IMG/VR virus record: IMGVR_UViG_3300030491_000004
Location: 2,786-66,785 of that record
Source: a virus
Length of the DNA stretch: 64,000 nucleotides
Direction: 5' to 3' (one strand)
Shown one piece after another: positions 21,193-55,086 of the stretch; position 1 is the stretch's first letter; each line of letters starts with the position of its first letter. Under the pieces are notes generated by a model. The model was not told the origin of the DNA, did no database searches, and saw nothing but the letters and a program-made list of their open reading frames with translations. A program made the translations under genes and the position numbers.

Positions 21193-21720
21193 ATGGGAAT
21201 AATCAGAACCAAAATAAAATTCTTTAAATCTACCAGGACTGGAAATCCGGTTGGATTCGTAACCTACAAAGATCATCATTTTGTAGGTGTACGTGAAGAA
21301 GACTCTTGTTTAAAAAGTGTTGTAATTGTTCCAAATTACTTAGTTTATCTGGTAGAGTTAGATTGTTTGTATGAAGTATCAATAACGCAATTGCCTAAAG
21401 ATAATGGGTATGAGGTTGTGGAACTTGAAAAGGTTTTGTTTAAGGCTGAAATATCGCAAGAAATTGTCACCGGCAAAAAATATGGTGTTGTTGTAAAATA
21501 TGGAAACAAAAAGATTAAGTGGGCTTATGGGGGAGTAAAATCTAAATCTATTGTAGGTTTAAAGATAGCCTCCTCTTTTGAAATAGCTGACAACTCTTTA
21601 GTTTTAGAAGAGTTTAATTGGCTTGTTGATGAGGTTTCAAAAAAAGCTCAAAAAGATGGTTTTGTAAGACACAAAAAGATACTGGATAGATGTCAGATAT
21701 ACCAACAGAGGGCATTATAA
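21193..21720 (+). CDS. Hypothetical protein
   Basis: ORF track. Confidence 0.7.
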   Translation: MGIIRTKIKFFKSTRTGNPVGFVTYKDHHFVGVREEDSCLKSVVIVPNYLVYLVELDCLYEVSITQLPKDNGYEVVELEKVLFKAEISQEIVTGKKYGVVVKYGNKKIKWAYGGVKSKSIVGLKIASSFEIADNSLVLEEFNWLVDEVSKKAQKDGFVRHKKILDRCQIYQQRAL

Positions 21721-22088
21721 CAGATGCCGCTCATTCAGAAAAAAATAAAAAAACAGAATATAGAGGTCTTATTTTACAGACCGGTAAAATGATTTTTTAT
21801 GAGGATCTGGGATTTAAGACGGTAAATATTGGGGAGTTTTTGGCAGTAGTTGATGCCGCCAAGTATATCATAGAAAATGATTTTACTCCCAGGATAATAT
21901 ATACGGACAGTATGACTGCTATGACGTGGTTTAATAATAAATCTACAGCGTCTAAAAAGAAATGTAGATTACTTCAAAAGGCTGAGATATTCCTCAAATT
22001 ACTTGCGGATGATATTTCTACAATCGAAGTAAGACATTGGGATAATCTGGGATGGGGAGAAAACCCAGCGGATTTCGGTAATAAATAA
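21690..22088 (+). CDS. rnhA: Ribonuclease H (type I catalytic domain)
   Basis: TDAAHS, TVNIGEFLA, IYTDS and WGENPADFG motifs. Confidence 0.85.
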   Translation: MSDIPTEGIITDAAHSEKNKKTEYRGLILQTGKMIFYEDLGFKTVNIGEFLAVVDAAKYIIENDFTPRIIYTDSMTAMTWFNNKSTASKKKCRLLQKAEIFLKLLADDISTIEVRHWDNLGWGENPADFGNK

Positions 22089-24439: not shown

Positions 24440-25213
24440 ATGGAAAGAAGAATTGGAGAAAAATTTGAAGACAATGGGGATCGTTTAGTAGTTATTAGAG
24501 GAGGAAAATGTAACAATTGCTACTACTACTTTAATGGTTGTACTGATCATAGTGTTAGAGGTGAGTGCTCCAGACTTAGAAGAGAAAAAAGTATGGAAGG
24601 TGTAATTTTTAAACAAATAAAAGAAGATATGGACGAAACAAAAATTAGAAGTGCAATTAGAGTGTATCCGGAACAAGTTCAGGAAAACATGAAAGATGTT
24701 ATTGTAAAAACAGTAACAGAGTTTGGAAAACCGGTTACGTATGTGACGATAAAAATGAAAAATGGATTTACTATTCGCGAGTCTACTACATGTGTGGATC
24801 CAGACAATTATGATGAAGAGGTTGGAAAGAAAATCTGTCTTAAAAAGATTGAAGATAAGATTTGGTGGTTACTTGGATACCAACTTCAAAGCTTTATAAA
24901 AAACGATCCTAACCCTAATGATGGAAGAAAGATTGGCGTCCTTATTGTTAATGGGGATAAACTTGTTGGCTTGTGGATGAAGTTTGACAAATTATGGGAA
25001 CAATTTTCTGAAGAATTAAACTCTGATATGGCCTTCCCAGGTAAGTTGAAGTTCTTTCAAAATTTAAAGGAGGAAAACGATATTCGTGGAGAAATAGCTG
25101 TTAAGTATTTTGATACATACAAAGAAGCTTCTGAGTATGATCCCAAAAAGGATATGCAAGTACCTTTCCCTAATGAGAAATGTTATTATGCGATGGGAGA
25201 AATAGATGCATAA
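24440..25213 (+). CDS. Protein with a Phage_gp49_66-like domain
   Basis: MKNGFTI.E...CVDPDNYDEEVGKKIC...IEDKIWWLLGYQL motif; Cys-rich N-module. Confidence 0.7.
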   Translation: MERRIGEKFEDNGDRLVVIRGGKCNNCYYYFNGCTDHSVRGECSRLRREKSMEGVIFKQIKEDMDETKIRSAIRVYPEQVQENMKDVIVKTVTEFGKPVTYVTIKMKNGFTIRESTTCVDPDNYDEEVGKKICLKKIEDKIWWLLGYQLQSFIKNDPNPNDGRKIGVLIVNGDKLVGLWMKFDKLWEQFSEELNSDMAFPGKLKFFQNLKEENDIRGEIAVKYFDTYKEASEYDPKKDMQVPFPNEKCYYAMGEIDA

Positions 25214-25230
25214 AAATATTTGTGATTTTA

Positions 25231-25261
25231 TTTGCAGATTAAAAAATAAGGCGTATATTTG
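25231..25261 (+). promoter_or_regulatory. Bacteroidota primary-sigma promoter upstream of the RNA cluster
   Basis: TTTG (25231-34), 19-nt spacer, TATATTTG (25254-61). Confidence 0.7.
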
Positions 25262-25364
25262 CATAACTCTTTTTTAAGGTTAGTAAAGTAATTAGTATTC
25301 ATTAATTTTTTAAGGAGTAAAAGTAGACTGTTGCGACCAGTTCTTTTACTCCTTTTTTAAAAAC

Positions 25365-25448
25365 TGGAGAGTAACCTGTAATTGGCAGCAGCGAAGACTG
25401 TAAATCTTCTCTTTAATTAGACTGTAGGTTCGAGTCCTACCTCCCCAA
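25365..25448 (+). tRNA. tRNA-Tyr(GTA)
   Basis: GAAGA-CTGTAAA-TCTTC anticodon arm, long variable arm, GTAGG-TTCGAGT-CCTAC T arm. Confidence 0.85.
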
Positions 25449-25449
25449 C

Positions 25450-25797
25450 TAATAGTTCGTTGATATATTATTGAAAGACGTATGGACCGGAAGGCAGAAG
25501 TCCGCACCTCCACCAGATTCAGATAACCGCTAACCAGCCGCGAAAGTGCTGTAAATAAGAAGTACCTATCTGAGAAATAGGTTGCAGATTTGACCACTGT
25601 ATAAAGTAACTGGAAGGATGTTACAAAAATTCTTCTTCTTGTTTAATTTAAAATTGGGGGTGAATAGTTTTGACAGCGTTGAGTTAGGTAATATTGAGAG
25701 CTATTAAAGTCAGAAATGACAAAAAATTGATTTCTATGGTTCAACCGGTCATGAGAATGGCTGCCTGAACACGCAAGAGGGACGCGAAAGTTCCCTC
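25450..25797 (+). ncRNA. ssrA: Circularly permuted (two-piece) tmRNA: acceptor piece ~25450-25515, intervening segment 25516-25655, coding piece 25656-~25797
   Basis: GGGGGTG/CACCTCC-ACCA with a G3.U70 pair; inter-piece helices; tag frame ending MRMAA-stop. Confidence 0.85.
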
Positions 25798-25801
25798 ACA
25801 T

Positions 25802-25903
25802 GGTTGAGTAGTTTAATGATGGAATAGCTAGTAATTGATGTGAGTGCGCCAAGATAACATTAATTAGATTCTGCTGGATCCGGTTTGATTCCGGACTCAA
25901 CCA
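25802..25903 (+). ncRNA. tRNA-like RNA with elongated anticodon arm
   Basis: GGTTGAG/CTCAACC-A acceptor, TCCGG-TTTGATT-CCGGA T arm, 10-bp extra helix with a 15-nt loop. Confidence 0.7.
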
Positions 25904-25908
25904 ACCTT

Positions 25909-25981
25909 GCTTCCGTAGCTCAGTGGTTAGAGCGTTTGCCTGTTAAGCAAAGGGTCGGCAGTCCGAATCTGTCTGGAAGCG
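25909..25981 (+). tRNA. tRNA-Asn(GTT)
   Basis: Full cloverleaf, TTTGC-CTGTTAA-GCAAA; T loop variant TCCGAAT. Confidence 0.88.
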
Positions 25982-26028
25982 CAAACAAATGACCTGGCAT
26001 ATTCCAGGATATAAATAAATATATAGAT

Positions 26029-26319
26029 ATGTATACATTAAGAATTATTGAAAACACAAGATCAAACGAAACAGAGAGGTTTGATAGTGTAATTGAAAAC
26101 TTTGAATTGGGTTGTTCTTATTCCAGAATTCAAAAAAACAAAACTAAAGAGTTTGATATTTTGATGAAAGAGGAATATCCAAATGTTGACGACACAAACA
26201 TAGACTCCATTATATTTGGAGAAAATGGTAAGAAATTCTTTATTGAGGCTTTTTCTCCTTTAAAAGAATACACTTATTTTATCATGTCGGATAATGGAAA
26301 TACTTTAGAAAGATTATGA
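26029..26319 (+). CDS. Hypothetical protein
   Basis: ORF track. Confidence 0.7.
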   Translation: MYTLRIIENTRSNETERFDSVIENFELGCSYSRIQKNKTKEFDILMKEEYPNVDDTNIDSIIFGENGKKFFIEAFSPLKEYTYFIMSDNGNTLERL

Positions 26320-27394: not shown

Positions 27395-27793
27395 ATGAAA
27401 AAGTTTTTATTGATCGCCTTTTTAGGCATCTTTTCATTTACATGCATGTCTGCCGGAGGGTTACCGAAACAGAATCAACAATCTACAGGTATCGTTAATG
27501 TAATAAATGAAAATTCCCCGGTGCTCCAGTTACAAACCCTTAACACTTACCAAAGGATAAGTACGCCAACCATTTCCAGCGCGGTTCTGAATGAACTAAT
27601 AACGCAGGAGCTTATTTCTCCACTACCTAAAAAATATACTCTTACAGCTAACAAATACGCATATCAGTTAGGTTCTGTGGATATTACTTATGACGAATAC
27701 ATTTTTTTAATACAGCAGTTACAGGAACTCAGCAAAATGGACTTAATTATACAGACTTATGGTCACAGTTCTAAATATAGTTCTTTTACGTAA
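27395..27793 (+). CDS. Secreted hypothetical protein
   Basis: Signal peptide; TACATTTG -7 element at 27353-27360. Confidence 0.65.
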   Translation: MKKFLLIAFLGIFSFTCMSAGGLPKQNQQSTGIVNVINENSPVLQLQTLNTYQRISTPTISSAVLNELITQELISPLPKKYTLTANKYAYQLGSVDITYDEYIFLIQQLQELSKMDLIIQTYGHSSKYSSFT

Positions 27794-27924
27794 CGCAAAT
27801 TTATCTCGGTAGATTTACTTTAATCACTGGATATAGGACCCAGTAAGATTAAGTGATCATATAAATTCGCAAGCACCCGGTAAATTATCTCAGCAAAGAA
27901 AGGAACCGGGTGCTTATTTTTTTC

Positions 27925-49875: not shown

Positions 49876-52071
49876 TTATACTATTTCTACTAATGAATTT
49901 TTTGCAAACTGTAAAGTATTTTTTCTGGAGAATTCACTAAATCTTATGTTAAACACTCCTACCATCATCTTATTCTTTACATCGCTTATTTTACCAGATC
50001 TATTGAACATACTCCTAACTTGCATCCACTCATCATTCCATATTACAAGTTCTGCGATCGTGTTGTTTTGCTGAAGTAATATCTTACAATAATCTTTAGC
50101 TTCTCCGGACTTTTTGTCTATATATTTTTTCTCTTCAATATCAGCTATAGAAGAGAGTATGATTCCTTTTTTCCCATCATATCTATCTTCTAATGCCATC
50201 TCTAAGGTAACCCATCCGGCTCTTGTTTTAAGTTTGTTCTTGATCTCCATTCCATCATAAATTCTTTTATAATCAATAGAACCAAGACCACTCACAGCTA
50301 TTTGTTTTTGGCTCCAGAAGTAATGTTTTTGAATAGCTTCTTCTGGAAAATCCGCGTCTTTTATTTCAAATTTAAGTATATCCGAAGCTCTATTCAAAAG
50401 ATCGTACCTTTCAACAACCGATAGGACGTGTTCGATATTATCAAAACATCCGGCTAGTATTAGGTTCTTTACATGAAGAGTGTTTACTGGACATTTTTCA
50501 GACTCACCGGAGTCATTTGGATCATCGTAATATTCTGTTTTCTTAAGTTTGTATTTGAATATCCTTTCTAAGAAATTTTCCAAAGAAGTAAATTCTCCTC
50601 TTTTTTCTCTTTCGGATATAATAAACTCAATAGTCTTAACTCCAACCTTATCTATCCTAGAGAAAGACCAAAATATTTCATTTAGTTTATAGTCAGTATG
50701 AAAGTCTTTTTCAGCATTATTTATATCTGGAGGAACGATCTTCGCATCACTACAAATTTCCATCTCACTAATTAATGTAGGTATATTTTCTTTATTAGCC
50801 CATTGTAAAGCTACTGTGTAAAACGCTAATGGATAATGCGCTTTAAGGTACGCACTCACATAAGCCATAGAAGAATATGCTGTGGCGTGTGATTTGTTGA
50901 ATAGGTACGAACCTCCAGCTTCCATCATTTCCCATATCTTATCAGCATCTTCTTGCGGACATTTATTATTTTTGGCACCTTTCATGAATTTATCTTTCAT
51001 GGCCATAATTTTGTCTACCTTCTTTTTGGAAATAAATTTTACAAGCTTAACTCCTTCACCTAAAGAAAATCCTCCAACCTCTCTAGCTATTCTTGCCAAA
51101 TCTTCTTGATAACACATTACACCATAAGTATCTTTCAACGCTTCATGAGTACCCCACAAATATACTGGAGTATCATCACCGAGTTTGCAATCTACATATT
51201 TTTGTGCACTGCCGAAAGTAAGTGTAGCTGGGCGATAAAGTGCGTTGGCTGCTGTTAAGTCGTTTATATTTTCAGGCTTAAGGTCGATCAAGAATTTTGT
51301 TATTCCATTACCGGTAAACTGGAAGACATCGTTTGTAAAACCATCCTTTAATAATTCATATGTTTTAGGATCGTCCATATTGCCTGTAACAAGTCCTTCA
51401 AGAGACACTCCGGCATTATAGGTTGAATTACATATCTTCATTATTGATTGGAGTTTAGACAATTCTTTTGTTGCCAGCACATCGTTCTTCAACAATCCCT
51501 GATCATCCAGTGACCCGCCATCAAATTCAGATATTAGAACACCGTCAATCTTTTTTATAGGAGTATAATCAAAACACTCCATATCTTTTCCGTTTCTATA
51601 ATCAGGAGTAACCAATAGGGCTGAGGCGTGAATAGAAGAAGATCTTGGAGAGTTCATCAACGTCCTTATGTCTTCTATCACTTGTGGAAAATCCATAATA
51701 AAACCCTTAACTCTAGGGTTTACGGCAGCCATCTTAAATAAGTCGGTCCAAGTCATTTTATCATCATCAAATATTTTGGTGATGTATTTAACCGTACTTA
51801 CAGGAACTCGGTATATTCTGGATACATCGGTGATAGCTGCTTTTATTTTCAAAGTAGTAAAGGTGCCGGCAGAAAATACCCTTTGCTTTCCATCATGATT
51901 ATATCTGGTTTCAATATATTTCTTTACATCTTGCCGTCTATCTGATTGGAAGTCGACATCCACATCCGGCAATGATCCAGACTCACCTTGTAAATAACCA
52001 CTGTCAACATACATATCTAGTACATTGACAGGGTTATTTGATGTTTTTTGTTTAACGCTTACTACTTTCAT
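49876..52071 (-). CDS. dnaE: DNA polymerase III alpha, C-terminal piece
   Basis: SLPDVDVDF, KNDVL, ALYRP, YQE, YLFNKSHA, HhH and OB-like regions. Confidence 0.92.
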   Translation of the reverse strand: MKVVSVKQKTSNNPVNVLDMYVDSGYLQGESGSLPDVDVDFQSDRRQDVKKYIETRYNHDGKQRVFSAGTFTTLKIKAAITDVSRIYRVPVSTVKYITKIFDDDKMTWTDLFKMAAVNPRVKGFIMDFPQVIEDIRTLMNSPRSSSIHASALLVTPDYRNGKDMECFDYTPIKKIDGVLISEFDGGSLDDQGLLKNDVLATKELSKLQSIMKICNSTYNAGVSLEGLVTGNMDDPKTYELLKDGFTNDVFQFTGNGITKFLIDLKPENINDLTAANALYRPATLTFGSAQKYVDCKLGDDTPVYLWGTHEALKDTYGVMCYQEDLARIAREVGGFSLGEGVKLVKFISKKKVDKIMAMKDKFMKGAKNNKCPQEDADKIWEMMEAGGSYLFNKSHATAYSSMAYVSAYLKAHYPLAFYTVALQWANKENIPTLISEMEICSDAKIVPPDINNAEKDFHTDYKLNEIFWSFSRIDKVGVKTIEFIISEREKRGEFTSLENFLERIFKYKLKKTEYYDDPNDSGESEKCPVNTLHVKNLILAGCFDNIEHVLSVVERYDLLNRASDILKFEIKDADFPEEAIQKHYFWSQKQIAVSGLGSIDYKRIYDGMEIKNKLKTRAGWVTLEMALEDRYDGKKGIILSSIADIEEKKYIDKKSGEAKDYCKILLQQNNTIAELVIWNDEWMQVRSMFNRSGKISDVKNKMMVGVFNIRFSEFSRKNTLQFAKNSLVEIV

Positions 52072-53393
52072 AACGCCAAGGTTTCTTCGATTTTACCGTA
52101 TTTGTTATTAGCTTTTTTGTACTTTTCTTCAAAGTCAAGCAAAGGTTGGTCTGGAATAATCATATCTTTTTTTATAAACGAATCAGAAACAATACCTTCC
52201 AAAGATCTGCATCTACTTAAAGCAACGTATAGTTGGCCCGGACAAAATGCGTGCGACATATGTAACGAAACTTTATTAAACGTAAGACCCTGGCTTTTAT
52301 GGATGGTAATAGCCCAAGCCAATGTTACTGGAAATTGGACACAACTTCCAATCTCTTCTTTAGTTATTTCTCCGCGTACAGACGAATATTTAAAATTACT
52401 CCATTTACATCTGGACACATTCACCAATTTGCCGTTATCTAATTTAAGTAATATTTCAGAAGGCTTTATCTCCATTATTACCCCAAGTGTTCCGTTAGAA
52501 TACTGTTTTGCTGGATCATTTACAAGTGTCATTACCTTTGCGCCTTTACGAATAGAAAGAACTAAATCGCATGGAGCAGCATTTTTAGGAAAATCTCCAG
52601 TAACATTTGCTTTAAATACATCGGTAGGAACACCAAGCTTTTCTGAATTTATAGCTTCAACATCTCTTTTATAGGTGCATATATGAACGTATTCATTGTC
52701 AAAATCTTGACTTATTTTACGATCACGCGCCTCATCCAATATTTCTAACTGATCTCTGGAAACATTATATTCCCTTATACTGTTTAATATGGAAATAAAA
52801 TTTGGATCCGATTGTCTGAATATGTGAGTTAATTCAATTACATTAAAAAATGATTGATATTTAAACACCCAAGAGTTGAAGAAATAAGTATTCGTATAGA
52901 AAGCGTCCAGTATAGCCTTATCTTCAGATTTAACTACTGGAGGTAATTGAAATAAATCTCCAAACATTACTAGTTGCATTCCACCAAAAGCAAGACTTGA
53001 TCTTCTTATTATTTGAAGTTTTTTGTCAACATAATCGAGTAGATCTGATCTTACCATACTTATCTCGTCAATTATCAAAGTGTCTAAATCTCTTAGAAGA
53101 TCTATTTTTTCTTTCTTCATTCGTATCTCCTCAATTTTACCGGTAGGAGGTATCGGTCCGAATGGAATATTTAATAAACTGAACAACGTAACTCCACCAG
53201 CATTTATAGCTGATATGCCGGTAGGTGCTGCGACTACACATTTCTTATTTGTATGCTCCATCAAATACTTCAAAAGAGTGGTCTTTCCAGTACCAGCCTT
53301 TCCAGTAATAAATACATGTTCCTTAGTATTACACACTATATCTAAGGCTTTGTTCATCTCTCTTGTTAATTCTAGTTCCATATTAAATTTCAT
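52068..53393 (-). CDS. Pif1/RecD-like SF1B helicase
   Basis: GKAGTGKT, IDEISM, GDLFQLPPV, FRQ, AITIHKSQG, YVALSR. Confidence 0.92.
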   Translation of the reverse strand: MKFNMELELTREMNKALDIVCNTKEHVFITGKAGTGKTTLLKYLMEHTNKKCVVAAPTGISAINAGGVTLFSLLNIPFGPIPPTGKIEEIRMKKEKIDLLRDLDTLIIDEISMVRSDLLDYVDKKLQIIRRSSLAFGGMQLVMFGDLFQLPPVVKSEDKAILDAFYTNTYFFNSWVFKYQSFFNVIELTHIFRQSDPNFISILNSIREYNVSRDQLEILDEARDRKISQDFDNEYVHICTYKRDVEAINSEKLGVPTDVFKANVTGDFPKNAAPCDLVLSIRKGAKVMTLVNDPAKQYSNGTLGVIMEIKPSEILLKLDNGKLVNVSRCKWSNFKYSSVRGEITKEEIGSCVQFPVTLAWAITIHKSQGLTFNKVSLHMSHAFCPGQLYVALSRCRSLEGIVSDSFIKKDMIIPDQPLLDFEEKYKKANNKYGKIEETLAL

Positions 53394-55086
53394 TTAAAGT
53401 AAATAGTACATCTCTGTTATCAAATAAAATATCATCATCTTCTTTTAACTCACTAGCTTCAATTTCTAGTGGTTCTTCAACTCCATCTCTATTAACTAAT
53501 AAGATGGCATCATTAGCTATCTTGTATTTTTTATTATTTGACAAGGTAACTTCTGTATATTCTTTAACTTCAATATCTTCTCCAACAATAGTTGTTTTTG
53601 ATGGATACAATCCAGCACGTTCCGGAAGAAGAAATCTTTCAAAAATTAAATCGTATTTTATTGGATCTATTAACGTTATACCTAAAAGATATAACACAAG
53701 ACAACCACCGGCAGATCCACGCCCTGAACCGACAAGTATATCGTTAGCGCGTGCCCAATTGACAGTATCATATTGAACAAGCATATAATCCAGATTATTA
53801 GTGGATTCAAGAACATATATTTCATAATCTAACCTTTTTTTATATATTTCCTCTTTTCCTTTTGGAACGAGTTTTTTAAATCCATCATCTAACAACTGGA
53901 GAAACATACTGTGTTGATCTCCGTATTTTTCTATTTCTTCCGGTGTCATGTCGTATGCTGGCATGAAGTTGTGCTCAGTATCAAAACTAGCCTTAGCACC
54001 ATTTAAAATAGAAACCGTATTATCACAAGCCATTTCAAAAATACTATTAACATCATGTTTTGAATGGTCAAATAACCCATCTAGCAAATCATACTGCTCA
54101 TCCAAATCTTTGAAATATTGCCCAAGACTTTGTTCATGAGACGCACCTGAAGCGATTTTGTTAAGTATTACTTTGTTTCTTGAATCGTCTTTATCCAAAT
54201 AATAACAATCTGTTATCAATATTGGAGAAACATCAATGTCTTCATTATCAAAATAATACTTAGTCGCTTCAAGTACTTTTATGTCTATTCTTTCTGATTT
54301 GTATTCAGTTAAATCTAATTGATAAAAACAATCAATAAATTTATCATAAAACAAATCAATATTTTCTCCAAGTGACTTAAGCCAATATGAAGAATATTTG
54401 TCGAACACTATCACATTACCCGGACCATATTTAAGCAAATCCTGAATGTCTATTGTTTTATCTTGCGAATCAACATTTATTGCTTTTTGAATCCTGAGTA
54501 AGTTTTGCAATCCGTCTTGTGATTGCACGTATATTTTTGCTCCTACTTTATTTTCTCCGTCTGTAAATATAAGAGAGTATCCAAATATAGGGGTTACTCC
54601 AGATTTTTTGCATTCTTTCTGCAATATTAAATGTGATGCCATTGTATTGTAATCACACACTCCTATTCCAGATTCTCCTAAATACTTAGCCTTTTTAATC
54701 CAATCGCCTATAGAAAAACTACCATTCAACAGTTCAAATTGTGAATGTATTCCCAGATTTACAAACTCTCTGGAATGTTTTAGTGATGGCGTTTTGCCAA
54801 CGTATTTAAGTATGTTGAATTCAAACTCCTCGCGAAGATCGTAATAATAAAAGTTATCTCCAAATTTAAACGCAATATAATTTATATCTTCTTTCATTAA
54901 TGAAGAAGTACTCTCCATAGAATTGAACTTAACTTCTTCATTTTCATCAATTCTAAATATAGAATGTAGTGAGTCAGTATCTTCATAAAAAACTTTTCCA
55001 AAGTCCTCTATCTCAAATACTTCATTATCTATTACGTGATATTGTATTTTATTATTGTTCAACCACGCTAAAAGTTCTTCGTTCAT
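53383..55086 (-). CDS. dnaE: DNA polymerase III alpha, N-terminal piece (PHP plus palm start)
   Basis: PHP NLGIHS.F...G; GSGRGSAGG; LGIT.IDP..YDLIFERFL. Confidence 0.92.
   Translation of the reverse strand: MNEELLAWLNNNKIQYHVIDNEVFEIEDFGKVFYEDTDSLHSIFRIDENEEVKFNSMESTSSLMKEDINYIAFKFGDNFYYYDLREEFEFNILKYVGKTPSLKHSREFVNLGIHSQFELLNGSFSIGDWIKKAKYLGESGIGVCDYNTMASHLILQKECKKSGVTPIFGYSLIFTDGENKVGAKIYVQSQDGLQNLLRIQKAINVDSQDKTIDIQDLLKYGPGNVIVFDKYSSYWLKSLGENIDLFYDKFIDCFYQLDLTEYKSERIDIKVLEATKYYFDNEDIDVSPILITDCYYLDKDDSRNKVILNKIASGASHEQSLGQYFKDLDEQYDLLDGLFDHSKHDVNSIFEMACDNTVSILNGAKASFDTEHNFMPAYDMTPEEIEKYGDQHSMFLQLLDDGFKKLVPKGKEEIYKKRLDYEIYVLESTNNLDYMLVQYDTVNWARANDILVGSGRGSAGGCLVLYLLGITLIDPIKYDLIFERFLLPERAGLYPSKTTIVGEDIEVKEYTEVTLSNNKKYKIANDAILLVNRDGVEEPLEIEASELKEDDDILFDNRDVLFTLNEI

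What the first reader, a model, noticed from the sequence alone, without database searches (positions are those of the whole stretch)
25450..25797. Circularly permuted two-piece tmRNA in a Bacteroidota phage, wedged between tRNA genes
Seen: the tmRNA 3' end (GAC-CGGAA-GGCAGAA-GTCCG-CACCTCC-ACCA, ending 25515) lies upstream of its 5' end (GGGGGTG-AATAGTTTTGAC, from 25656). The two form an acceptor stem with the G3.U70 alanine identity pair. They also pair through TAATAGTTC(25450-58)/GAGCTATTA, TTGATAT/ATATTGA and GACGT/GCGTT. A tag frame follows at 25709-25768 (VRNDKKLISMVQPVMRMAA-stop), then one GAAA hairpin, with no obvious pk1-pk4. Known: permuted tmRNAs occur in Alphaproteobacteria and some Cyanobacteria and Betaproteobacteria, and the GGCAG-type T loop resembles the alphaproteobacterial one, whereas Bacteroidota tmRNAs are one-piece. 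Inference: this is a minimal phage tmRNA whose outer ends are made by processing of the flanking tRNA-Tyr and tRNA-like gene, and which adds a long phage-specific tag.
Basis: partly seen in the sequence, partly recalled or inferred. Interest (0 to 1): 0.85.

Follow-up and report, generated by a model that had tools for sequence, protein, structure and literature searches.

The report
Divergent two-piece tmRNA in phage
This peat phage, probably of a Bacteroidota host, carries a real but unusually divergent back-to-front (two-piece) gene for tmRNA, the RNA that frees stalled ribosomes; it belongs to a stripped-down phage family that public records already label, so it is a variant of a known thing.

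Summary
The 3' tRNA-like half (ending ACCA at 25515) lies upstream of the 5' half (GGGGGTG from 25656). Rfam's permuted-tmRNA model RF04321 aligns end to end at 25455-25768, at 45.7 bits against a cut-off of 47 (E 1e-7). ARAGORN misses it.

It is not a one-off. A motif scan found 38 permuted loci of a pseudoknot-poor family, including the annotated tmRNAs of Maribacter phage Panino and Chryseobacterium phage MA9V-3. A model built from 15 of them, without this sequence, hits the window only here (40.7 bits, E 7e-10). Family comparison moves the resume codon to GAC 25718, giving the tag DKKLISMVQPVMRMAA. It also shows tRNAs abutting both pieces at the same spacing elsewhere.

This copy is odd in one region. 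Its T loop is the alphaproteobacterial kind (GGCAGAA; 0 of 38 family loci). Its T stem ends in A.G, whereas all 103 other permuted tmRNAs in hand have G-C. That argues against full activity.

The nearest phage relatives lack the gene. No RNA evidence was obtained.

Verdict: a new variant of a known kind, of modest interest.

The parts
25231..25261 (+). Promoter-like site of the Bacteroidota type (TTTG, 19 bases, TATATTTG) in the gap after ORF 24440-25213
   Evidence: The motif TTTG-N17-21-TANNTTTG occurs 14 times in the window against 4.1 +/- 2.1 in shuffles, and 0 of 100 shuffles reach 14. The consensus itself is recalled, not taken from a call. Use as a promoter is inferred.
25365..25449 (+). 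tRNA-Tyr (GTA). Its 3' end abuts the first base of the acceptor piece
   Evidence: ARAGORN; Rfam tRNA at 29.4 bits, cut-off 29.
25450..25515 (+). Acceptor piece, 66 bases. It holds P2c strand 25450-58, P2b strand 25465-72, P2a strand 25477-81, GGAC 25484-87, T stem 25488-92 with 25500-04, T loop GGCAGAA 25493-99, acceptor 3' strand 25505-11, A 25512 and CCA 25513-15
   Evidence: Infernal alignments; cofold; sequence.
25516..25655 (+). Intervening segment of 140 bases, expected to be cut out. It has several hairpins and no Rfam match
   Evidence: Treated as an insertion by both models. The length lies within the 3-300 base range seen in 123 other permuted genes. No motif is shared with family spacers.
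25656..25708 (+). 5' part of the coding piece. It holds acceptor 5' strand 25656-62, D-loop analogue 25663-74, and P2a, P2b and P2c strands at 25676-80, 25687-94 and 25698-25706
25709..25720 (+). Small GAAA-loop hairpin at the place of pseudoknot 1. Its last three bases are the proposed resume codon
   Evidence: Fold. Infernal gives zero bases to the model's hairpin at this place.
25718..25768 (+). Tag reading frame: GAC resume codon, 16 codons (DKKLISMVQPVMRMAA), stop TGA at 25766-68
   Evidence: Translation. The resume codon comes from the Infernal alignment to the consensus and from family tags that start G/D then K/N. It is inferred, not shown.
25739..25770 (+). Hairpin that holds the 3' half of the tag frame and the stop codon, as helix 5 of tmRNAs does
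   Evidence: Fold of 25707-25800: -28.7 kcal/mol, z -3.3, and 0 of 200 shuffles fold as well.
25777..25797 (+). Terminal hairpin with a GCGAAAG centre, shared with family members
   Evidence: Fold. Like hairpins follow the tag in Panino, MA9V-3, L214 and the L217 group.
25801..25906 (+). tRNA-like gene: 8-pair acceptor stem, T arm, and a 10-pair arm with a 15-base loop where the anticodon arm should be. Its 5' processing would free the 3' end of the coding piece
   Evidence: ARAGORN only with -i -ps90, as tRNA-Ile(GAT) with a 29-base insert. No Rfam tRNA match at E up to 10. Fold.
25909..25982 (+). tRNA-Asn (GTT)

Best explanation
This is a genuine circularly permuted tmRNA gene. It is a divergent member of a family of stripped-down two-piece tmRNAs carried by phages of Bacteroidota.

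Inferred route:
1. One transcript runs from a promoter near 25231-25261 through tRNA-Tyr, the tmRNA and the downstream tRNAs.
2. RNase P and the tRNA 3'-end enzymes cut out the tRNAs. They also cut at G25656 and after CCA 25515, so the 140-base spacer is lost.
3. A 66-base acceptor piece and a coding piece of about 145 bases remain. About 22 inter-piece pairs in three P2 helices, plus the 7-pair acceptor stem, hold them together.
4. Host alanyl-tRNA synthetase charges the RNA through G3.U70. Host SmpB and EF-Tu bring it to stalled ribosomes; no smpB is in the 66.8 kb held.
5. Translation resumes at GAC 25718 and adds Ala-DKKLISMVQPVMRMAA.

Shown here: homology, piece order, the pairing, the open frame and the family layout.

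Inferred: every processing step, charging, tagging, and what the long basic tag does.
For: Model evidence:
- RF04321 aligns end to end at 45.7 bits, E 1e-7 to 2e-9.
- Family model R1, built from 15 relatives without this sequence, gives a single significant hit in the 64-kb window: 25466-25700, 40.7 bits, E 7e-10, though E-values from this model are rough. Four held-out family members score 63-89 bits and an alpha-type gene scores 25.6.

Shared family traits:
- the D-loop motif ending TTTGACAG;
- a three-helix P2;
- no pseudoknot-1 hairpin;
- tags of 15-23 residues starting G/D then K/N;
- a post-tag hairpin with a GCGAAAG-like centre, followed by a tRNA or a T run.

Other support:
- The first 25 bases of the acceptor piece give a local match score of 20 (maximum 25) to L214 and L283.
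- P2 pairing is strong and specific. It is -18.5 kcal/mol, against -15.8 +/- 4.4 for the 30 distinct family loci tested and -11.0 for mismatched partners. The acceptor piece with other members' coding pieces gives -7.9. No shuffle out of 1000 reaches it.
- In the family, 4 of 6 P2a pairs and 4 of 5 T-stem pairs show compensatory double changes.
- tRNAs abut the pieces at the same distances in Panino (67 and 140 bases), L267 (68) and L214/L283 (143, 140), against 66 and 146 here.
- DNA contigs of a further run read the same letters over 25443-25633 and 25647-26100.
Against: - The T stem closes with A25492.G25500. All 103 distinct permuted tmRNAs collected here have G-C there and five full pairs.
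- The D loop has AG where 36 of 38 family loci have GG.
- The score is below Rfam's gathering cut-off, while 8 of 8 tested family members pass at 57-68 bits.
- ARAGORN of 38 family loci but not this one, even at -ps90.
- The nearest relatives lack it. These are two complete 112-kb IMG/VR genomes with 71% terminase identity, two at 51%, Bacteroides phage BS-TP1 and MT835494. It is therefore not needed by the lineage.
- No close homologue was found, so covariation could not be tested on this sequence itself.
- No smpB is in the record, which is about 60% complete.
Confidence: 0.68

Rival explanations
1. It is a decaying or inactive copy. The gene is homologous to the phage tmRNA family but no longer works in trans-translation. 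It is carried along in a tRNA cluster within a fast-changing accessory region.
For: - It is unique in losing the G53-C61 pair (0 of 103 others).
- One of the two D-loop G residues is lost.
- It scores lowest of all family members under both models.
- It is absent from all six relatives examined.
- Few of the accessory-region ORFs find a match in BS-TP1 or G001.
Against: - Decay should strike helices and the frame at random. Here the acceptor stem is perfect and CCA is kept.
- The three P2 helices bind more tightly than the mean of the 30 family loci tested (-18.5 against -15.8 kcal/mol; the range reaches -31.9).
- The 16-codon frame still ends Ala-Ala-stop inside a helix-5-like hairpin.
- The changes cluster in the two loops that touch each other in the tRNA elbow. 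That looks like a joint change rather than scatter.
Confidence: 0.2
2. It is a tRNA-like decoy. The RNA binds SmpB or is charged with alanine but does not tag. It would damp the host's own trans-translation during infection, as reported for the tRNA-domain-only tmRNA of mycobacteriophage DS6A.
For: - The DS6A-type molecule inhibits tmRNA when expressed in E. coli (passages seen in PMC11915505 and PMC4131195).
- This copy lacks pseudoknot 1 and has an altered elbow.
Against: - A decoy needs no reading frame. Here the frame, its Ala-Ala end and the stop-codon hairpin are kept and match the family pattern.
- The long P2 and the coding piece would be superfluous.
Confidence: 0.08
3. It is a chance resemblance: two unrelated tRNA fragments in a tRNA cluster that mimic a permuted tmRNA.
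For: - tRNA clusters give false permuted calls. ARAGORN at -ps80 made two such calls here, with other coordinates.
- RF04321 'rings' below its cut-off in 12 of the 14 control genomes (it rings in 13, one of them over the cut-off).
Against: - Two independent models give E below 1e-7 over their full length.
- Outside the tRNA-like parts it also shares the distal P2 strand, the resume context, the tag style and the post-tag hairpin with family members.
Confidence: 0.02

Closest known systems
Permuted tmRNAs annotated in cultured Bacteroidota phages: Chryseobacterium phage MA9V-3 (PV245944.1, 22766-23124) and Maribacter phage Panino (PP540027.1, 27557-27889)
   Same: - Piece order, the D-loop motif and a three-helix P2.
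- No pseudoknot 1.
- 16-17-residue tags (GKVMNVSFAPTVRQFA, GNVIDINKYVAKLEVAA).
- A post-tag hairpin.
- In Panino, tRNAs abut both pieces at 67 and 140 bases.
   Different: - Both have a canonical TTCGA-type T loop, a full 5-pair T stem and GG in the D loop.
- ARAGORN calls both, and Rfam RF04321 scores them 62-65 bits, over its cut-off.
- Their spacers are 36 and 57 bases, against 140 here.
- Sequence identity to this gene is too low for blastn.
Uncultured IMG/VR loci L214 and L283 (122.9-kb and 128.2-kb contigs), and L252
   Same: - They are the nearest in the distal acceptor-piece strand (local match score 20, maximum 25).
- L214 has a GAC resume codon with tag DNVYQLGGVQRRFAA, then a hairpin and a tRNA-Met 143 bases after the 5' end.
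- L252 shares the P2b and P2c strand of the coding piece, and its tag starts GKKVSF.
   Different: They have a canonical T arm and D loop, other spacers and other tags.
Alphaproteobacterial-type two-piece tmRNA (Rfam RF01849; Caulobacter type) and its phage copies (OM43 phage Melnitz, pelagimyophages; PMC9004378)
   Same: - Piece order.
- A T loop of the GGCNGNA kind.
- The 46 bases before CCA are 87% identical to the alpha-type viral locus L010.
   Different: - Alpha-type genes have pseudoknot 1 and ANDN... tags of about 13 residues.
- Their D loop ends TCGAC, and their acceptor piece has a 5' extension.
- They score 67-125 bits on RF04321.
- This gene scores only 29.3 on RF01849 (cut-off 50). 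It fits the Bacteroidota-phage model better: 40.7 bits against 25.6 for L010.
tRNA-domain-only tmRNA of mycobacteriophage DS6A
   Same: A phage-borne, reduced tmRNA (passages in PMC4131195 and PMC11915505).
   Different: DS6A has no tag frame and is not permuted. Here a full tag frame is kept.

Membership tests
tmRNA, permuted form (Rfam RF04321) | 3' tRNA-like half upstream of the 5' half on one strand | tested here: met
   ACCA ends at 25515 and GGGGGTG starts at 25656. Infernal aligns model positions 1-213.
tmRNA, permuted form (Rfam RF04321) | 7-pair acceptor stem with G3.U70, discriminator A, CCA | tested here: met
   GGGGGTG pairs with CACCTCC and is followed by ACCA. The third pair is G.T.
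tmRNA, permuted form (Rfam RF04321) | T arm: 5-pair stem closed by G-C, with a conserved 7-base loop | tested here: not met
   There are four pairs plus A.G. All 103 other permuted tmRNAs in hand have five pairs and a G-C closure. The loop GGCAGAA is of a known (alpha) kind.
tmRNA, permuted form (Rfam RF04321) | P2 pairing that joins the two pieces | tested here: met
   Helices of 5, 8 and 9 pairs; -18.5 kcal/mol; 0 of 1000 shuffles reach it.
tmRNA, permuted form (Rfam RF04321) | Tag frame after P2 that ends Ala-Ala-stop | tested here: met
   ...VMRMAA then TGA. The end aligns to the model's GCNGCNTAA with high posterior probability.
tmRNA, permuted form (Rfam RF04321) | Score at or above the curated gathering cut-off (47 bits) | tested here: not met
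   45.7 bits. ARAGORN gives no call at default or at -ps90.
tmRNA, permuted form (Rfam RF04321) | Alanylation, SmpB binding, tagging of stalled chains | not testable with these tools
   These need bench work. No smpB is in the 66.8-kb record.
Stripped-down permuted tmRNAs of Bacteroidota phages (Panino, MA9V-3, 36 IMG/VR loci) | Fits a profile built from family members only | tested here: met
   R1, built from 15 members without this sequence, scores 40.7 bits at E 7e-10. This is its only significant hit in the window. It is lower than the held-out members, which score 63-89 bits.
Stripped-down permuted tmRNAs of Bacteroidota phages (Panino, MA9V-3, 36 IMG/VR loci) | No pseudoknot 1; tag of 15 residues or more starting G/D then K/N (long-spacer subgroup); post-tag hairpin followed by a tRNA or a T run | tested here: met
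   The absence of pseudoknots rests on folding and on the model alignment, not on a dedicated pseudoknot search.
Stripped-down permuted tmRNAs of Bacteroidota phages (Panino, MA9V-3, 36 IMG/VR loci) | Canonical TTCGA-type T loop and a D loop with GG | tested here: not met
   37 of 38 family loci have TTCGA-type loops and 0 of 38 have GGCAGAA. 36 of 38 have GG in the D loop, where this gene has AG.
Alphaproteobacterial-type two-piece tmRNA (Rfam RF01849) | Full-length match over the cut-off (50 bits), pseudoknot 1, ANDN-type tag | tested here: not met
   A partial match to model positions 82-174 only, at 29.3 bits. The tag and the D loop differ.

The most novel reading that the evidence does not exclude
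The tRNA elbow of this Bacteroidota-phage tmRNA has been re-made in the alphaproteobacterial style. The T arm carries GGCAGAA and the facing D loop has changed with it, while the rest of the gene stays of the Bacteroidota-phage type. This could have come by recombination with an alpha-type phage tmRNA; the T-arm stretch is 87% identical to one over 46 bases. It could also have come by joint drift of the two loops. Either way it would be a natural 'module swap' showing that the two known T-loop solutions are interchangeable within one tmRNA lineage. The swap might tune the RNA to, or away from, a host factor such as SmpB or RNase P.
Probability: 0.3. Interest if true: 0.45.

Novelty: new variant of a known kind. 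Interest (0 to 1): 0.3.

Why it matters
Phage-borne tmRNAs are known, but what they do for the phage is not.

This case adds a peat, non-marine example. It shows that the stripped-down two-piece form, with a long basic tag, sits in tRNA clusters where tRNA processing alone can make all four ends. That makes it a compact system for asking how little of a tmRNA is needed.

The practical point is for annotation. This copy is missed by ARAGORN and falls 1.3 bits under Rfam's cut-off, so such genes are under-counted.

The altered elbow is a natural experiment on T-loop/D-loop requirements, if the RNA proves active. It is an alpha-type T loop in an otherwise Bacteroidota-phage gene, with the near-universal G53-C61 pair replaced by A.G.

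In itself the find is a variant of something already catalogued. I found no paper describing the family in the searches. Most results were seen only as listings. The phylum-level supplementary table of PMC11915505 could not be read, and it may list such genes.

Tried and rejected
Searches for close relatives:
- Exact-pattern scans found no close relative. The scans were viral, metagenome and genome. The three hits are not tmRNAs. The 34 hits are chance matches in G+C-rich contigs or marine alpha-type genes.
- The neighbouring protein 24440-25213 found no relatives.
- blastn of the region against 50,697 phage records matched only tRNAs.

RNA evidence:
- Contigs of three metatranscriptomes (X19-X21) lie only on 25779-25984 and on part of tRNA-Tyr. 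They have other flanks, so they come from a relative. They say nothing about this tmRNA.

Chimera idea:
- I first read P2a plus the T arm as alpha-derived. However, the P2a strand also resembles that of the L287 group by eye (sequences). Only the T arm is distinctly alpha-like.
- The coding-piece D loop differs from the family motif by two bases, so it is not an alpha-type replacement.

Possible scar in relative G001:
- After its tRNA-Phe, G001 has a short stretch like the start of this acceptor piece. My gapped alignment test was too lax to count: 1 of 500 shuffles reached the score.
- A G001 leader motif that looked like the tag hairpin does not occur in the window within 3 mismatches.

Other dead ends:
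- No motif is shared between family spacers and this one.
- Claims in earlier notes about crAss-like phages were not tested here.

Full report
**What is there.** The window is 64 kb of a 66.8-kb IMG/VR virus record, estimated about 60% complete. On the + strand, 25365-25982 holds five elements in a row:
- tRNA-Tyr;
- a 66-base stretch that ends in a T arm, CACCTCC and ACCA (25515);
- 140 bases of spacer;
- GGGGGTG (from 25656) with a D-loop analogue, a long pairing strand, an open frame and hairpins;
- a tRNA-like gene and tRNA-Asn.

ARAGORN finds four tRNAs and no tmRNA, and still none at -ps90. Rfam at gathering thresholds lists only tRNAs. In E-value mode, Rfam's tmRNA_permuted model RF04321 aligns over all 213 positions at 25455-25768. 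The score is 45.7 bits against a cut-off of 47, with E 1.1e-7 and 1.9e-9 in the whole record. The alphaproteobacterial model RF01849 matches its tRNA-domain part at 29.3 bits.

**Check of the observation.**
- The acceptor stem has seven pairs, with G.T as the third pair, discriminator A and CCA.
- The two pieces cofold to -62.9 kcal/mol, against -47.7 +/- 4.0 for 200 shuffles.
- The fold has inter-piece helices 25450-58 with 25698-25706 (9 pairs), 25465-72 with 25687-94 (8 pairs) and 25477-81 with 25676-80 (5 pairs).
- The P2 strands alone give -18.5 kcal/mol. No shuffle out of 1000 reaches this. Only 7% of 123 other permuted tmRNAs bind as tightly.
- The frame is open from 25688 to TGA 25766-68 and ends MAA.

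**The phage.**
- The large terminase is 57% identical to that of Bacteroides phage BS-TP1, and the DNA polymerase III alpha piece is 61% identical. Weaker matches go to Cellulophaga, Chryseobacterium, Tenacibaculum and Flavobacterium phages.
- A promoter motif that I recall as the Bacteroidota consensus occurs 14 times, against 4.1 +/- 2.1 expected. One copy lies at 25231-25261, upstream of the RNA cluster.
- The DNA is held by runs labelled peat metagenome. Of 24 runs listed, 18 hold half or more of the sampled words, and ten of those may be the source.
- A Bacteroidota host is thus likely but not shown.

**Relatives of the phage lack the gene.**
- BS-TP1 and MT835494 have no RF04321 match (0 of 2).
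- Four IMG/VR relatives found through the terminase (71, 71, 51 and 51% identity) have nothing better than 13 bits.
- The family model described below finds nothing in G001, G004 or the 105.6 kb of BS-TP1 held.
- G001 has a tRNA cluster (Met, Phe, a small ORF, Asn, Leu) behind its RNase H homologue. Here the RNase H homologue (21690-22088) is followed by tRNA-Ile, and the tRNA-tmRNA cluster lies about 3 kb further on. The gene therefore sits in a changeable tRNA region.

**The turn in the analysis.** Earlier notes of this scan spoke of a family of minimal two-piece tmRNAs in Bacteroidota phages and named Maribacter phage Panino. I tested that lead.
- Panino's record annotates a tmRNA at 27557-27889. 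Its sequence has the same layout as here: acceptor piece, 36-base spacer, GGGGGTG with a D loop ending TTTGACAG, a long P2, no pseudoknot 1, a 16-residue tag, a hairpin, then a tRNA.
- A scan of IMG/VR with the shared D-loop motif gave 88 loci: 36 permuted, 47 one-piece and 5 neither.
- Chryseobacterium phage MA9V-3 has an annotated permuted copy with tag GNVIDINKYVAKLEVAA. Cellulophaga phage Calle_1 has a one-piece gene.
- ARAGORN of these 38 permuted loci.
- RF04321 scores all 8 tested members at 57-68 bits.

**Membership.**
- I built model R1 from 15 family members, without this sequence. It hits the window once, at 25466-25700, over its full length, at 40.7 bits and E 7e-10 (E-values from this model are rough).
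- Held-out members score 63-89 bits. The alpha-type locus L010 scores 25.6.
- The first 25 bases of the acceptor piece give a local match score of 20 (maximum 25) to L214 and L283. The best score among 136 alpha-type genes is 12.
- In the family alignment, 4 of 6 P2a pairs and 4 of 5 T-stem pairs show compensatory double changes.
- Cognate P2 strands bind better than mismatched ones: -15.8 against -11.0 kcal/mol.

**The tag.**
- Infernal puts the consensus resume codon on GAC 25718-20.
- In relatives, ARAGORN picks GAC (DNVYQLGGVQRRFAA, DNNNVFSIAPLRATA) or GGN (GKVMNVSFAPTVRQFA, GKTIQMFPQQLRAVA, GKKVSFDRMVNQRHEARVYACAA), each followed by AAN.
- Its 3' half and the stop codon lie in a hairpin (25739-25770), as in helix 5 of tmRNAs. 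A small GAAA hairpin (25709-20) stands where pseudoknot 1 would be. A terminal hairpin (25777-97) resembles those of relatives (z -3.3).

**Ends.** Among 31 distinct family loci:
- Two have a tRNA ending 67-68 bases before the acceptor 3' end.
- Three have a tRNA starting 140-143 bases after the 5' end.
- Panino has both.
- Here the figures are 66 and 146.

It remains inference.

**What is odd.**
- The T loop is GGCAGAA. None of the 38 family loci has it; 37 have TTCGA-type loops. It is the alphaproteobacterial kind: in 120 alpha-type viral loci the loops are GGCAGTA (98), GGCGGTA (19), GGCAGAA (2) and GGCGGAA (1).
- The 46 bases before CCA are 87% identical to the alpha-type locus L010.
- No other gene among 103 distinct permuted tmRNAs combines an alpha-type T loop with a D loop ending TTTGAC.
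- The D loop has AG where 36 of 38 relatives have GG.
- The T stem closes with A.G, while all 103 others have G-C and five pairs.

These changes explain the low scores. They are the main reason to doubt full activity.

**RNA evidence.** None bears on the tmRNA. Contigs of three metatranscriptomes match only 25779-25984, with other flanks. DNA contigs of run X11 confirm the letters.

**Literature.**
- Two-piece tmRNAs in phages are published. In PMC9004378, ARAGORN suggested that 53 of the 133 unique tmRNA structures found among 18,146 phage genomes are two-piece (passages seen).
- RF04321 was built from alpha, beta and cyanobacterial seeds (PMC11915505, passages). Its phylum table was not readable.
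- The Panino paper mentions the tmRNA only as a possible attachment site or spare copy (PMC11590407, passages).
- The searches gave no paper on this family. Most results were seen only as listings.

**Verdict.** This is a genuine, divergent member of a phage tmRNA family that databases already label. It is a new variant of a known kind and of modest interest. I put the odds at about two in three that it still works as a tmRNA.

Noticed in passing
window 25801-25906 (+): A tRNA-like gene with an 8-pair acceptor stem and a normal T arm. It has a 10-pair arm with a 15-base loop in place of the anticodon arm. ARAGORN calls it tRNA-Ile(GAT) with a 29-base 'intron' only at -i -ps90. Rfam gives no tRNA match. 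RNA contigs from three metatranscriptome studies hold a copy with 3-4 differing letters in 206 bases, together with tRNA-Asn but with other flanks.
   Followed up: partly
window 25309-25359 (+): A strong 12-pair hairpin followed by a T run. It lies between the promoter-like site and tRNA-Tyr, 5 bases before the tRNA. It could be a terminator of the upstream operon or a leader element; this is unresolved. ARAGORN at -ps85 calls a doubtful 'tRNA-Stop(tta)' at 25273-25352 over it.
   Followed up: no
L139 4962-5270 (-), record G001 (terminase 71% identical): A tRNA cluster (Met, Phe, Asn, Leu) sits just after the RNase H homologue of G001. Between tRNA-Phe and tRNA-Asn there is a small ORF. The bases just after tRNA-Phe resemble the start and the GGAC region of this window's acceptor piece, which may be a scar of a lost tmRNA. 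A 16-base motif also stands before two of the tRNAs in that cluster.
   Followed up: partly
window 49876-55086 (-): The DNA polymerase III alpha homologue is in two ORFs. ORF 53383-55086 matches the first part of PHROG 405 and ORF 49876-52071 matches the rest. A Dda-like helicase gene (52068-53393) lies between them. BS-TP1 has the same order.
   Followed up: no
L208 758-1090 (PP540027.1 27557-27889): The tmRNA feature in the Panino record overlaps the annotated tRNA-Asp and tRNA-Thr on either side, and a small CDS is annotated on the opposite strand inside it. By my reading, the real pieces run from about 27585 to about 27826.
   Followed up: partly
loci L209-L296 (IMG/VR): The same D-loop motif marks 47 one-piece tmRNA genes in viral contigs, beside the 36 permuted ones. 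A short-spacer subgroup (13-17 bases) has short GEQVEMAMAA-type tags. One-piece and two-piece forms with one D-loop type thus coexist in phages.
   Followed up: no
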